From: Eledone cirrhosa
Taxonomy: Eukaryota
Assembly: GCA_964016885.1 (NCBI GenBank)
Contig: OZ024754.1
Coordinates: 12,462,001-12,526,000, forward strand
Reading direction: 5' to 3'
Length of the DNA: 64,000 nucleotides
Shown here: one piece after another, positions 10,095 through 54,665 of the stretch
Layout of the letters: the number at the start of each line of letters is the position of its first letter
Position numbering within the stretch: the stretch's first letter is position 1
Program-made: the position numbers and the translations under genes
Notes under the pieces: model-generated
What the model was told of the DNA's origin: nothing
Database searches by the model: none
Seen by the model: the letters and a program-made list of their open reading frames with translations, nothing else

Positions 10095-10433
10095 AGAGCA
10101 TGGCCTTGGTGGTTAGAGTGGTTAGAACATTGGCCTTGCAATCAAAAGGTTGTGAGTTCAATTCTCAGACCAGGTGATGTGTTGTTTCCTTGATCAAGAC
10201 ACTTTATTTCACATTGCTCCAGTTTACTCAGCTGTAGAAATGAGACGATAGGGACTGGGGTCCCTATCATTCCACTGTAAAGTGGACGTGGAGGTGTCAT
10301 GGCAAAAAAGCACCCAGCACTCACTGTAAATGAGGTTGGTGTTAGCAAGGGCATCCAGCTGTAGAAATCAAGCCACAATCAGTTCCCGTCCCACCCTTGC
10401 AAGCAGGGAAAAGCGGATGCAAAATGATGATGA
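10095..10433 (+). mobile_element. tRNA-derived SINE with V/Meta-like core and RTE-derived 3' tail
   Basis: A box, B box gagttcaattc, core caagacactttatttcacattgctccag, tail cccacccttgcaagcagggaaaagcgga..(TGA)n. Confidence 0.85.
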
Positions 10434-10454
10434 TATACATACATACTACATATA

Positions 10455-10795
10455 TCATCATCATCATCATCATTTTACGTCCGCTTTTCCCTGCTTGCAA
10501 GGGTGGGACGGGAACTGATTCTGGCTTGATTTCTACAGCTGGATGCCCTTCCTAACACCAACCTCATTTACAGTGAGTGCTGGGTGCTTTTTTGCCGTGG
10601 CGCCTCCACGACCACTTTGCAGTGGAATGATAGGGACCCCAGTCCCTATCATCTCATTTCTACAGTTGAGTAAACTGGAGCAATGTGAAATAAAGTGTCT
10701 TGCTCAAGAAAACAACACATCACCCGGTCTGAGAATTGAACTCACAACCTTTCGATTGCAAGGCCAATGCTCTAACCACTAAGCCATGTGCCTCC
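10455..10795 (-). mobile_element. Same SINE family, inverted tail-to-tail with the preceding copy
   Basis: Full-length reverse copy; head ggaggcacatggcttagtggttagagc. Confidence 0.88.
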
Positions 10796-10941
10796 ATATA
10801 CATATATATATATATGTACGTATGGGTTATATCGAACGCTAACAATAATGTTCGATTTGTTTGTAAACTAACGGTCCGATTTGAAGGTATGCCATGCTAG
10901 TGGTCAATCGTCACCGGTTTGTTCAACATTGGCTTTGAGGA

Positions 10942-11331: not shown

Positions 11332-11366
<35 letters not shown>

Positions 11367-11561
11367 GATAAATCTACCAAAAGTTTACGGTAGTGTCCAA
11401 TCCGTATGAAGAACTCAATGTAATCCGGATATCATGAAAAGAAGAGATGCATTCAAAAATCACTTTCGGTGAAAGATAAACGGAATACAGAGTCAAGATA
11501 AAATATTAAAAAAATAATGAATAAACAAAGAAACAGTTCCTTATATTAAACAAATAAAGTT

Positions 11562-11700
11562 CATTATTTTACGATCGTTTCTAGGATATATATGTGTTAG
11601 AATTGGTATGCATATTCAAAAGATCTATGTACAAAATTATACAAACTATCAAAGAGAATATACATACCATCACATATATATGCTGTCTTCAGAAATAATA
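11562..11700 (-). ncRNA. Hammerhead ribozyme with long stem II (left arm)
   Basis: Minus strand: tattattt CTGAAGA [about 104 nt] GAAA CGATCG TA aaataatg. Confidence 0.72.
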
Positions 11701-11709
11701 TTATTATAA

Positions 11710-11850
11710 TAATTATTTCTGAAGACAGCATATATATGTGATGGTATGTATATTCTCTTTGATAGTTTGTATAATTTTGTACATAGATCTTTTGAATATG
11801 CATACCAATTCTAACACATATATGTCCTAGAAACGATCGTAAAATAATTA
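11710..11850 (+). ncRNA. Hammerhead ribozyme with long stem II (right arm)
   Basis: taattattt CTGAAGA(11719-11725) [104 nt including ggtatgtatattc/gaatatgcatacc] GAAA(11830-11833) CGATCG TA aaataatta; perfect 9-bp stem I. Confidence 0.78.
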
Positions 11851-11904
11851 ACTTTTTTTGTTTAATATAAGGAACTGTTTCTTTGTTTATTCATTATTTT
11901 TTAA

Positions 11905-11937
<33 letters not shown>

Positions 11938-16997: not shown

Positions 16998-17193
16998 AAT
17001 ACCTAATAAATTCCTTTTTAAAAAAAGCACTTTCATTTTATATTCATCTTTTCTACATTTTCTCCGGAATATAATTTATACTCGTCGAGCAAACCTGCAC
17101 GTACGCTGTTCATCTCTAACGTAACGATACATTATCACTACATTATTGATAACCTGAAATTTTATATATATACATATATATACATATATGTAT

Positions 17194-17225
<32 letters not shown>

Positions 17226-17234
17226 ATACATATA

Positions 17235-17321
<87 letters not shown>

Positions 17322-17322
17322 T

Positions 17323-17356
<34 letters not shown>

Positions 17357-17357
17357 C

Positions 17358-17477
17358 GTTTACGGCCATATCACGCTGACAACACCGGTTCTCGTCCGAT
17401 CAACGAAGTTAAGCAACGTCGAGCCTAGTTAGTACTTGGATGGGTGACCGCCTGGGAACCCTAGGTGCCGTAAGCGT
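17358..17477 (+). rRNA. 5S rRNA: 5S rRNA copy (dispersed, probably a retropseudogene)
   Basis: TTACGGCCATATCACGCTGA...CTCGTCCGATC..GAAGTTAAGC...AGTACTTGGATGGGTGACCGCCTGGGAA...GTGCCGTAAGC; internal control region present, no T4 terminator, embedded in (TA)n. Confidence 0.93.
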
Positions 17478-17513
17478 CTAATATTTACATATATATATAT
17501 ATATATATATATT

Positions 17514-17612
<99 letters not shown>

Positions 17613-40763: not shown

Positions 40764-40801
<38 letters not shown>

Positions 40802-40988
40802 GATAAATCTACCAAGAGTTTACGGTAGTGTCCAATCCGTATGAAGAACTCAATGTATTCCGGATATCATGGAAAGAAGAGATGTAATGAAAATCCAATT
40901 TCGGTGAAAGATAAACGGTATACAGAGTCAAGATAAAATATTAAACAAATAATGAACAAACAATTCCTTATATTAAACAAAAAAAGTT

Positions 40989-41137
40989 CACTATTTAACG
41001 ATCGTTTCTAGGGTATATATGTGCTATAATTGGTATGCATATTTAACAGATCTATGTACAAAATTATACAAAATTATACAAATTATCAAGATTAAATATA
41101 CATACCTAACACATATATACGCCGTCTTCAGAAATAA
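40989..41137 (-). ncRNA. Hammerhead ribozyme with long stem II (left arm)
   Basis: Minus strand: ttattt CTGAAGA [116 nt] GAAA CGATCG TT aaatag. Confidence 0.72.
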
Positions 41138-41138
41138 T

Positions 41139-41289
41139 CGTTATTTCTGAAGACGGCGTATATATGTGTTAGGTATGTATATTTAATCTTGATAATTTGT
41201 ATAATTTTGTATAATTTTGTACATAGATCTGTTAAATATGCATACCAATTATAGCACATATATACCCTAGAAACGATCGTTAAATAGTG
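41139..41289 (+). ncRNA. Hammerhead ribozyme with 116-nt stem II (right arm)
   Basis: cgttattt CTGAAGA(41147-41153) ... GAAA(41270-41273) CGATCG TT aaatagtg. Confidence 0.76.
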
Positions 41290-41336
41290 AACTTTTTTTG
41301 TTTAATATAAGGAATTGTTTGTTCATTATTTGTTTA

Positions 41337-41375
<39 letters not shown>

Positions 41376-48404: not shown

Positions 48405-49367
48405 CACCTCAAGAACACCAAAACTCGTTAAAAGTGTGAGGGAAAAAATAAGGCGTAATCCAAGAAGGTCCATGAGAAAAATGGCAGAAGAAGCAGTACT
48501 ATGCGGAGGATATGTCGAGATGATCTGGGGATGTCACCCTATAAGTTCCAAAAGAGGCAGCTTCTTTCTGCAGTCACAATTGAAAAGAGGCTCTCCAGAA
48601 GTAAACTGTTATTGAACCGTATCAAGAATGGCACGCTGCAAAACATCAACTTTACAGATGAGAAGTTATTCACTGTGCAGCAGTCTTACAATCATCAAAA
48701 TGATGGAGTACTTGCAAAGTTTCAGATCAATTCCTTCAAGTGTAGGAAAAATGTTCAGAACACAGAAACCAGCATCAGTGATGGTTTGGGCAGCCATTTC
48801 TGAAAGAGGGAAGTCTCCTGTGATTTTTGTGCCTCAAGGAGTTAAAATTAACAAAGAACTTTACATAAAGGATATTTTGGAAGGAGCACTGATGCCATGG
48901 TGCACATCTGTTTATGGCGATGACATTTGGACTCTCCAACAAGATGGAGTGACGAGCCACACTGCTAGCGTAACACAACAGTGGTGTAGAGACCATTGTC
49001 TTGCATGGATCAGTAAGGAAGAGTGGCCTCCCACATCACCAGATCTCAACCCTCACGATTTTTCTTTATGGTCAATTCTTGAGAGTGAAGCCTGCTCTAC
49101 TCCTAGCCAGAATATTGAAACTCTAAAATCAAAACTGAATAAAGTATGGGAGAAAATACCCATGGAAACTGTTCTTGCAGCCATCAAAGACTTTCCTAGA
49201 AGACTTCGAGCGGTAGTGAGAGCTAGAGGAAAGCATTTCAAATAAATTTTTGTGCAGTTGTTTAATAGTATATTACTTAGTATTTGTTGAAGTCGGATCT
49301 TAAAATAAATGTTTTTTTCAAGAACTATTTGCATTTTATTTTGTAACAGTTTTTATGCCCCACCCTG
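48405..49367 (+). mobile_element. maT (DD37D) Tc1/mariner transposon, 5'-truncated and frameshifted
   Basis: FTDEKLF, VMVWAAI, QQD-(37 aa)-NPHD spacing, SPDLNP; right terminus gccccaccctg|TA. Confidence 0.88.
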
Positions 49368-52977: not shown

Positions 52978-54665
52978 CTAGCAGATTTACCGGGCGTTGC
53001 TTGGGGTTTGAAATTATGCTAAGAATATACAGCTAGGAAGTAAAAGAAGAACATTATTTGTCCCCAACCTGTCAAAATAAGCAGAATTCTTCAATAATTA
53101 ATGCAAACGCATATTTAGTGCAATCTTTGTACACATAAAACTATGCTGATAATGAAGGAAAACACTGAACAGGATGTAGTTATACAAATGATTAAAGACA
53201 AAACACGTTGCAAATCTGTAAAAAAACAGGCAGTTTTGCTAAAGTACAAAAAGTTGTAATGAAAGCAGACTTTATACAAACAAAAAAAAAACAATGAGAG
53301 TAGAATAAGAGAAAATCTATTCTTTGAGAGCATCCTTTGCTGTGTATGGTTAAATTTTGAATTTATAATCCCAAATATCCTGCATGACATATTCATTGGT
53401 ATGTTTTGTAATGAGTAAGGTGAAGTCAAGGCAGAGCTGTAATAAGTTTTTTTGTTAACACTAAAGCACTTCAGGATAGACGATATTCTTTGTTTTTCTT
53501 TTCGGAAAAAACGCAAAGAGATTATCTCGACTGCCAACTCGTGAGCAGGCAACGTAGAATTGTCCGTGCGAAAAGCAAGGTTCATCCAAGTGAATTCCAG
53601 TGACGGACAGAGTTTGACCTTGCGACTTGTTTATGGACTTCGCAAAGGCAACACGAAGGGGAAATTGTGTTCGGCGAAAGGAGATGGGAGTATCCACGCC
53701 TGATGTAGTCAGGCTAATTTTTGCTATTATCACATCCTCGCCTTTTCCCCATCCGGATAGAATGGTAGCGTCAATACTAAGTGGAGACAGTTTTTTAACC
53801 ACAAGGCGTGTATCATTGCATAGTTTTGGAGGAGTGATATTTCTCAGCAAAATAACTGGCGTTCCCTCTTTCAGAACCAATGTATTAGGAGGTAAACCAG
53901 GAGGATTTAAAGAATTCAGAAATTCAACTGGATAGTTGACCGCATCCTGTGGATCACATACAGTATCAATAGATTTATATATCCGTGGACATCCAGAAAG
54001 AATCCTGTTCAGTATGTTCCTTCATTGTCAAAAAAGCTGGAAGCATAGATAATGCCTGCCTCAAATGTGGACGAAATTACTTTAAAAATGTAAAAGCTGT
54101 AGGTCCCAATGGTTTGAATGGAAAGTCCCATAAGGATTGTTCTAAAAATAAACAAACCATCATCAAAATCTCGTCAATTCGAGACTGCTGCGAGATTAGG
54201 CCCTTACCTCGAAAATTAACACTTAATATAGTGAAACAAGTTAAAACAATAAGTGTTTTTTTAAAACTTTGAAAGTGCAACAAAGAATAAACAAGAAACA
54301 AACGATGTTTATATTTCTGAAATTTCGTCCGACGATAATTGTTGTTTTAAAATTGAAAACGAAGGTCTCCATATCTCACTCTCTTTATAACGATTATCAA
54401 TTAAGTTGGTTATCTCCCTTTTTTTTATAAGGATTGTCAATAAAGTTGGTTATCTCCCTTACATCAATTTTGCTACCGATAATTTTGATATCGATTTTTT
54501 ATTGCTCAACGTGGGTCGATTAGAAAATTTATGATGTGACCATCTTAGCGACCTGTGCAACGTGCACAGAAAATTTGGTCAAATTCGGTTGGTAATTGTA
54601 AAAGCCTTAGGTATCCAAAGTTGTACACAGACACACACACATCCTCACTTTTATATATATAAAGA
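52978..54665 (-). mobile_element. Non-autonomous Helitron (1688 bp) carrying a PIF1-helicase C-terminal fragment
   Basis: Minus strand begins A|TC (54665) and ends CTAG|T (52978) with a subterminal GC-rich hairpin; no TSD. Confidence 0.85.
53461..53995 (-). pseudogene. Helitron RepHel PIF1-like helicase C-terminal remnant
   Basis: GTPVILLRNI, LCN, QFPLRVAFAKSINKSQGQTL, FSHGQFYVACSRV, TKNIVYPEVL*. Confidence 0.9.

What the first reader, a model, noticed from the sequence alone, without database searches (positions are those of the whole stretch)
17350..17480. 5S rRNA copy with a 5' fold-back, inserted in a TA tract
Seen: the 5S copy starts with a perfect 10-bp hairpin ATATGGCCGT-tt-ACGGCCATAT (17350-17371). 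This is an inverted copy of its own 5' end whose ATAT merges into the TA tract. The 5' GC expected to pair with the 3' CCGTAAGC is replaced by GT, there is no oligo-T terminator and there is no tandem 5S spacer. Inference: this is the same signature (5' inversion plus TA microhomology) as the hammerhead fold-backs, suggesting trans-mobilisation of a cellular RNA by a PLE-type reverse transcriptase.
Basis: partly seen in the sequence, partly recalled or inferred. Interest (0 to 1): 0.74.

Follow-up and report, generated by a model that had tools for sequence, protein, structure and literature searches.

The report
5S retrocopy primed from both ends
A young, solitary DNA copy of the ribosomal 5S RNA sits inside a TA repeat with a tiny mirror image of its own start, likely because both ends of the cut repeat started copying 5S RNA; the copying enzyme is more likely a LINE than the proposed Penelope element, though two other copies hint that Penelope elements may also capture 5S RNA.

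Summary
The hairpin (17350-17371) and 5S copy (17358-17476) are real and unique in the genome. But GT is the normal 5S start here, so only four bases (GGCC) are added. The copy is a young tailless retropseudogene, one base off a tandem array elsewhere. Likely mechanism: twin priming. One end of the cut TA tract primed on the 3' trailer, the other on AUAU at 5S nt 11-14, and the two cDNAs joined at the near-palindromic 5' hexamer. Support: two other places hold nt 1-14 running into TA, and nt 11 is a truncation hot spot (11 of 88). Fold-backs are not a shared signature: 0 of 24 other tailless copies have one. TA flanks are enriched (46 of 167 against 4%). Most dispersed copies are fused to SINE or LINE tails (75 of 99, 61 of 73), which the scan noted before on other DNA of this genome. 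Six or seven copies with an inverted 5' arm involve SINE/LINE elements and two a Penelope-like element. Enzyme odds: LINE 0.45, Penelope 0.27. A variant of a known kind, of modest interest.

The parts
17163..17353 (.). left TA microsatellite (target)
17318..17353 (+). left copy of a possible 32-36 base target duplication (an interrupted TA unit); uncertain, because the unit is itself repeated in the tract
17350..17353 (+). last ATAT of the tract; complementary to 5S nt 11-14; inferred top-strand primer
   Evidence: for priming at this site elsewhere
17354..17357 (+). GGCC, the only added bases; reverse complement of 5S nt 7-10
17358..17363 (+). normal 5S nt 1-6, a near-palindrome with two central non-pairing bases; inferred joint of the two cDNAs
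   Evidence: sequence; joint is inference
17358..17476 (+). full-length 5S rRNA copy, 118 of 119 bases identical to 6 of 12 units of the C4:93.02 Mb sub-array
17368..17371 (+). 5S nt 11-14 (ATAT); nt 10-13 are unpaired in the Rfam consensus
17477..17482 (+). six bases of the 3' trailer, cut before the oligo-T run; ends in AT shared with the target
17481..17584 (.). right TA microsatellite; 17481-17512 is the possible right copy of the target duplication

Best explanation
This is a young, solitary DNA copy of 5S rRNA without poly(A) or terminator, likely written by a LINE-type reverse transcriptase that primed both ends of a cut TA repeat on 5S RNA (twin priming). Shown: the copy starts at the normal +1, keeps six trailer bases, and has four added bases in exact mirror register. 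Inferred: the bottom strand paired with the AU of the trailer and copied the RNA to its 5' end; the top strand, ending in ATAT, paired with AUAU at nt 11-14 in an unpaired loop, probably of a second 5S molecule, and copied the last 10 bases; the two cDNA ends annealed over the near-palindromic first hexamer (4 of 6 pairs), whose two central mismatches became the 2-base loop. The copy is likely inert.
For: Source and youth. TA DNA primes at nt 11-14 elsewhere: 2 matches, control 0; L356 is a bare nt 1-14 stub running into TA, L337 has one before a full copy. Starts at nt 11 in 11 of 88 copies collected by their 3' end, P about 2e-6. Two-sided priming with 5S by SINE/LINE machinery: inverted SINE plus tailless 5S inside an 11-base exact duplication (L058, L305), a 12-base one with one mismatch (L299), none clear in L063/64; inverted RTE-type tail plus 5S chimera inside a 12-base duplication (L053); inverted 5S nt 3-27 with a CR1-like tail (L082). 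SINE/LINE-type 3' partners in 75 of 99 and 61 of 73 loci, and no convincing PLE 3' partner. The bare cDNA end does not fold back. Known precedent: PMC4476161, PMC5322556 (passages and sections read).
Against: No retroelement sequence lies in this insertion, so the enzyme is inferred from other loci. Self-inverted duplication is rare for SINE/LINE insertions here: 0 of 259 short stems, 1 pair in 125 and 2 pairs in 184 hits, against 3 pairs in 11 and 7 pairs in 37 hits for two PLE-type families. Two 5S copies carry PLE-type arms (L106, L232). The LINE that moves the SINE of L058, L299 and L305 was not identified (one search found none), so calling it a LINE rests on the general rule. One of 16 array units has CC before +1, which could supply half of the added bases. 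n = 1.
Confidence: 0.45

Rival explanations
1. Same two-sided priming, but by a Penelope-like element's reverse transcriptase acting on 5S RNA in trans.
For: PLE-type repeats here sit in TA tracts and are often head-to-head. L232 and L106 each have an inverted arm of hammerhead family H, outer end at a TA tract, joined directly to a 5'-truncated 5S with no 5' remnant beyond the arm. Family H has a GIY-YIG-like frame upstream in 3 of 19 loci (Atlas neighbours include GIY-YIG clusters). U6 copy L171 has an H arm and a 3' end from a PLE with Pfam GIY-YIG. A purified PLE cuts and extends both strands at AT-rich DNA (PMC11167929, main text read).
Against: 0 of 24 other tailless copies are self-folded against about 10 of 38 PLE units (Fisher P 0.005). 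With the two H-armed copies counted the gap is not significant (P 0.11). L106 and L232 could be later PLE insertions that deleted the 5S start; L328 shows a piece of another TA-flanked repeat before a truncated 5S-RTE chimera, so such neighbours arise otherwise too. Pfam did not recognise the H frame and no H reverse transcriptase was found. The purified PLE needs a binding region in its own RNA and starts at a site not homologous to the target.
Confidence: 0.27
2. One cDNA only: after reaching +1 its 3' end snapped back on itself and was extended by the reverse transcriptase or a host repair polymerase for 8 bases, then joined the TA tract by ATAT microhomology.
For: Gives the same sequence. 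Very short fold-back duplications arise at yeast breaks (PMC11724301, abstract and one section) and beside L1 insertions with 2-base homology (10.1101/2024.12.14.628481, passages). L034 fits a fold-back with 4-base homology.
Against: It needs one or two base pairs around a 2-4 base loop; the 19- and 40-base cDNA ends do not form it. It does not explain the independent nt 1-14 stubs.
Confidence: 0.15
3. Chance: four untemplated bases, or two bases of upstream spacer plus two untemplated ones, that happen to mirror nt 7-10.
For: Extra bases at 5' junctions are common among the copies; L056 has CC before +1; 1 of 16 array units has CC there; the finding was selected after the fact from a large scan.
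Against: 0 of 16,156 TA-adjacent random junctions reach a 10-bp stem; the register with ATAT and GT is exact; priming at the same site is seen independently.
Confidence: 0.1
4. Assembly error, or a DNA-level stray copy of the array.
For: The site lies in long microsatellites; reads were not checked. Stray copies with spacer exist (L047, L340, L350).
Against: Those stray copies keep spacer; this one starts at +1 and stops inside the trailer. GGCC is not a typical slippage error (own knowledge).
Confidence: 0.03

Closest known systems
Tailless retropseudogenes of 5S rRNA, tRNA and snRNA (Noll et al. 2015, PMC5322556, passages; Doucet et al. 2015, PMC4476161, sections 8 and 10)
   Same: No poly(A), 5' end intact, 3' end set by short pairing between target DNA and an unpaired RNA stretch.
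   Different: Described as dependent on L1 with an A-rich target, in therians and anole; here the target is TA microsatellite in an invertebrate, the priming is in the pre-rRNA trailer, and a 5' inverted duplication is added.
Twin-primed snRNA/L1 and 5S/L1 chimeras (PMC4476161, passages; 10.1101/2025.02.02.635956, passages)
   Same: The second target strand primes inside a small RNA by microhomology, giving a head-to-head joint; antisense 5S pieces are reported.
   Different: There the other arm is L1; here both arms are 5S and overlap (duplication of nt 5-14, not inversion with loss).
Inverted 5'-truncated arm of endonuclease-bearing Penelope-like elements (Craig et al. 2021, PMC8557442, passages; Frangieh et al. 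2024, PMC11167929, main text)
   Same: Head-to-head duplication at the 5' end, TA-repeat target, both strands extended.
   Different: No PLE sequence, hammerhead, pseudo-LTR or one-sided tail in this insertion.
U6/SINE and U6/LINE template-switch chimeras of non-L1 clades (PMC4476161 section 10)
   Same: Describes most of the other dispersed 5S copies of this genome.
   Different: The window copy has no 3' partner.

Membership tests
Tailless retropseudogene | 5' end at the transcript start, no upstream spacer | tested here: met
Tailless retropseudogene | No oligo(A) tail; 3' end complementary to the target | tested here: met
   ends in trailer AT shared with the tract
Tailless retropseudogene | Target site duplication | tested here: inconclusive
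   32-36 base candidate inside a repeated unit
Tailless retropseudogene | L1 enzyme and L1 target consensus | tested here: not met
   target is TA repeat; L1 itself was not searched for
Twin-primed retro-insertion | Inverted 5' segment whose outer end is complementary to the target | tested here: met
   4-base match to nt 11-14
Twin-primed retro-insertion | Microhomology at the inversion joint | tested here: met
   2 bases, or 4 of 6
Twin-primed retro-insertion | Two separately primed cDNAs rather than one folded cDNA | not testable with these tools
   indirect only:
PLE-mobilised insertion | PLE pseudo-LTR, hammerhead or one-sided tail in the unit | tested here: not met
   none at either junction
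PLE-mobilised insertion | Head-to-head arm and TA target | tested here: met
   met, but also met by SINE/LINE-type events
PLE-mobilised insertion | PLE enzyme accepts 5S RNA | tested here: inconclusive
   L106, L232
5S-derived SINE (SINE3) | 5S head joined to a body and LINE-like tail, amplified as a family | tested here: not met
   no body or tail; junction unique
Functional 5S gene | Array context and oligo-T terminator | tested here: not met

The most novel reading that the evidence does not exclude
A Penelope-like reverse transcriptase primes directly on 5S rRNA from either end of a cut TA repeat, so PLEs make pseudogenes of cellular small RNAs in trans; the window copy is the event in which both ends took 5S, and L106 and L232 are events in which one end took 5S and the other the element's own RNA.
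Probability: 0.27. Interest if true: 0.62.

Novelty: new variant of a known kind. Interest (0 to 1): 0.32.

Why it matters
As it stands it is one inert fossil, but it records to the base how a second target strand can start on a passenger RNA, and it extends tailless 5S pseudogenes, described as an L1 product, to TA repeats in an invertebrate. If the PLE reading is right, it would add an enzyme class to those that copy cellular RNAs into genomes and give a simple in vitro substrate (5S RNA plus a TA primer) for the open question of how PLE inverted arms form.

Tried and rejected
GC-to-GT change: rejected. GGCCG before L061: part of its 13-base target duplication, not a fold-back. GGCCG before L054: 5-base stem, within chance. 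L085: a fold-back repeat abuts the 5S trailer in an order that fits a later insertion. PLE label for L303: low-complexity match. The stem test misses long arms because alignment ends overshoot, so one search is used for those. Search for a source gene with the exact variant: none. Search for the LINE partner of SINE A2: one search showed only truncated SINE copies; left open. Reverse transcriptase of family H: not found in the one region listed (its frames gave no relevant Pfam hit). L092 gave no 5S hit; two places (C84, C1525) and two fetched regions (L354, L355) were not examined. PMC311219 was not held, so twin priming is cited through PMC4476161. Literature: no paper held 4 of 5 terms on PLE trans-mobilisation of cellular RNA; two searches listed nothing on it; this covers only the open library. 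No supplements were read; those of PMC8557442 and PMC13282606 may name the repeat families.

Full report
Observation. The window lies in a 3.0-Gb animal genome; an octopus-like host is my recollection from the repeats and the wording of earlier scan notes, not a tool result. Rfam finds one RNA family match in the window, a full 5S rRNA at 17358-17476, between two TA tracts. The inverted repeat at 17350-17371 is present as described. The true 5S genes are tandem arrays on C4 and C14 (659 exact matches to a 5' 19-mer, most of the listed ones in the C4 array). All 16 array units printed start with GT, so nothing is replaced. The left arm is four bases of TA tract, four added bases (GGCC) and nt 1-2. 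The copy differs at one base from 6 of 12 units of the C4:93.02 Mb sub-array, and keeps six trailer bases with one change; both changes are private. It is therefore a young RNA-derived copy (inference).

Chance. The fold-back occurs once in the genome. Joining 378,480 random positions from 19 arbitrary 10-kb regions to the 5S start gave a stem of 10 bp or more 75 times, and 0 times in 16,156 TA-adjacent positions. That is about 0.035 expected over 175 loci, but the window was chosen for the feature.

Census. I examined 100 loci (99 with a 5S hit), 8 more tailless ones (15 places, 5 already held, 2 not fetched), 73 loci collected by the 3' end and one stub (L356). This is a sample of exact-pattern matches, not all copies. 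A SINE- or LINE-type 3' partner follows the trailer or an A run in 75 of 99 and 61 of 73 (two of which keep array spacer); the references were cut from these loci. For one SINE, 19 of 28 chimeras lie in a non-repetitive target duplication. Partners include a near-complete LINE with endonuclease, reverse transcriptase and PHD domains (L111; 'RTE-like' is recalled), and the last 65 bases of a second LINE (L175, L177; 'CR1-like' is recalled), whose chimeras have TA upstream in 10 of 18. No convincing PLE 3' partner was found, though several partners stay unidentified. The scan had already reported these chimeras (e1-10352695). TA lies within 14 bases upstream in 46 of 167 copies against 4.3% of random positions.

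Fold-backs. Twenty-four other copies have no recognised 3' partner (sorted by eye); none is self-folded. Inverted 5' arms do occur. SINE/LINE type: L058, L305 and L299 (inverted SINE plus tailless 5S in an 11- or 12-base duplication), L063/64 (same layout, no clear duplication), L053 (inverted RTE-type tail, 12-base duplication), L082 (5S nt 3-27 inverted, TA flank, CR1-like tail) and the complex L083. PLE type: L232 and L106, each with an inverted arm of hammerhead family H joined to 5S from nt 69 or nt 13. Family H is likely a PLE end: a GIY-YIG-like frame lies upstream in 3 of 19 loci, with Atlas support but no Pfam hit and only a weak match to a Pfam-positive PLE frame. Among 16 U6 loci outside the array, L171 has an H arm and the 3' end of a Pfam-positive PLE. 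Head-to-head pairs are common in PLE-type repeats (3 pairs in 11 hits, 7 in 37) and rare in SINEs (1 in 125, 2 in 184, 0 in 52, 59 and 25); short self stems occur in 0 of 259 SINE/LINE-tail insertions.

Mechanism. 5S nt 11-14 read AUAU, with nt 10-13 unpaired in the Rfam structure. TA DNA uses this site elsewhere: nt 1-14 running into TA occurs at 2 places, control 0 (L356, L337), and 11 of 88 copies collected by their 3' end start at nt 11, about six times the neighbouring rate. Because ATAT is its own complement, a top-strand end can pair with the cDNA (truncation at nt 11) or with RNA (an inverted copy of nt 10 to 1). In the second case both cDNAs end in the complement of nt 1-6, a near-palindrome; they can anneal by 4 of 6 pairs, and the two central mismatches give the observed 2-base loop. 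This accounts for every base without trimming (inference). The lone cDNA end is not predicted to fold back, which weighs against snap-back but does not exclude it.

Which enzyme. Events in which target DNA primed on 5S and an arm names the machinery split 6 SINE/LINE-type to 2 PLE-type. Against PLE as the main source of tailless copies: 0 of 24 self-folded against about 10 of 38 PLE units (P 0.005); counting the two H arms, P is 0.11 (the P 0.04 predates L106). For PLE: self-duplication is its habit, and a purified PLE extends both strands (PMC11167929). L106 and L232 may be later insertions with deletion, as L328 warns. I put LINE at 0.45, PLE at 0.27, snap-back or repair at 0.15, chance at 0.10 and artefact at 0.03.

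Known kinds. Tailless 5S pseudogenes (PMC5322556, passages), internal priming and twin priming on small RNAs (PMC4476161, sections 8 and 10 and passages), antisense 5S/L1 chimeras (10.1101/2025.02.02.635956, passages) and PLE inverted arms at TA repeats (PMC8557442, passages) are described. PMC6007223 (passages) links RTE target choice to 3' microsatellites. PMC13282606 (passages) lists RTE, CR1, L1-Tx1 and Penelope families as recently active in one octopus. I found no paper on PLEs copying small cellular RNAs in trans, though PMC8557442 mentions PLE transfer of host genes in trans; the library is incomplete.

Verdict. A real but single and likely inert insertion; a variant of known retropseudogene kinds. 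Interest 0.32.

Noticed in passing
L034 (G000:C1:358875981-358878981), about 1430-1600: 5S nt 69-27 inverted plus nt 1-69, set between two inverted copies of the first 24 bases of an LTR-like repeat whose other copies show 4-base target duplications by eye and in one case lie near an integrase frame. Looks like a 5S palindrome inserted by an LTR-element integrase. Differs from Cassandra/Ajax elements (PMC10886601, abstract only).
   Followed up: partly
L232 (C7:50976553-50976585, minus) and L106 (C3:134868185, plus): Inverted arm of PLE-like hammerhead family H joined head-to-head to truncated 5S; best candidates for PLE capture of a cellular RNA.
   Followed up: partly
L171 (C2:210236305-210236530): Inverted H arm, U6 from nt 10, then the 3' end of a GIY-YIG PLE; the U6 joint may be at a ribozyme cut site (by eye only).
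   Followed up: partly
L245-L258: Family H copies are followed directly by truncated SINE, LINE or other PLE ends in several of 14 loci, so H RNA seems a frequent target of template jumps.
   Followed up: no
L111:477-4120 (C4:48621476 onward): 5S fused by a short A run to the 5' end of a near-complete RTE-like LINE with a PHD finger.
   Followed up: partly
L175-L186; one search list: The last 65 bases of a CR1-like LINE occur as a unit with a fixed 5' end, often fused to 5S, U6 or other sequences; a defined short RNA is possible.
   Followed up: partly
L083 (C28:66800663-66801000): Two full 5S copies head-to-head across a microsatellite, sharing private changes, plus a nt 1-19 piece and a SINE.
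   Followed up: partly
L054 (C3:324562706): Full 5S followed by a second 5S start of 8 bases before the TA tract: a jump from the 5' end of one RNA to the 3' end of another.
   Followed up: no
one search list (L362; C5:54031727; C18:35947823): SINE A2 with its own head inverted in 3 of 58 truncated copies; many of the others are TA-flanked.
   Followed up: no
window 11364-11913 and 40799-41345: Two head-to-head insertions of one PLE-type family with a one-sided tail, in TA tracts.
   Followed up: partly
window 10117-10797: Two copies of one SINE tail-to-tail, 95% complementary; not a 5' fold-back.
   Followed up: partly
G000:C14:42767410-42778556: A small 5S cluster with units in alternating orientation, unlike the head-to-tail C4 arrays.
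   Followed up: no
G000:C19:31780605-31840331: Tandem U6 array with about 1.8-kb spacing.
   Followed up: no
window 53461-54021 (minus) and 48616-49245 (plus): Frames with a Pif1 helicase 2B match and a weak DDE transposase match.
   Followed up: no
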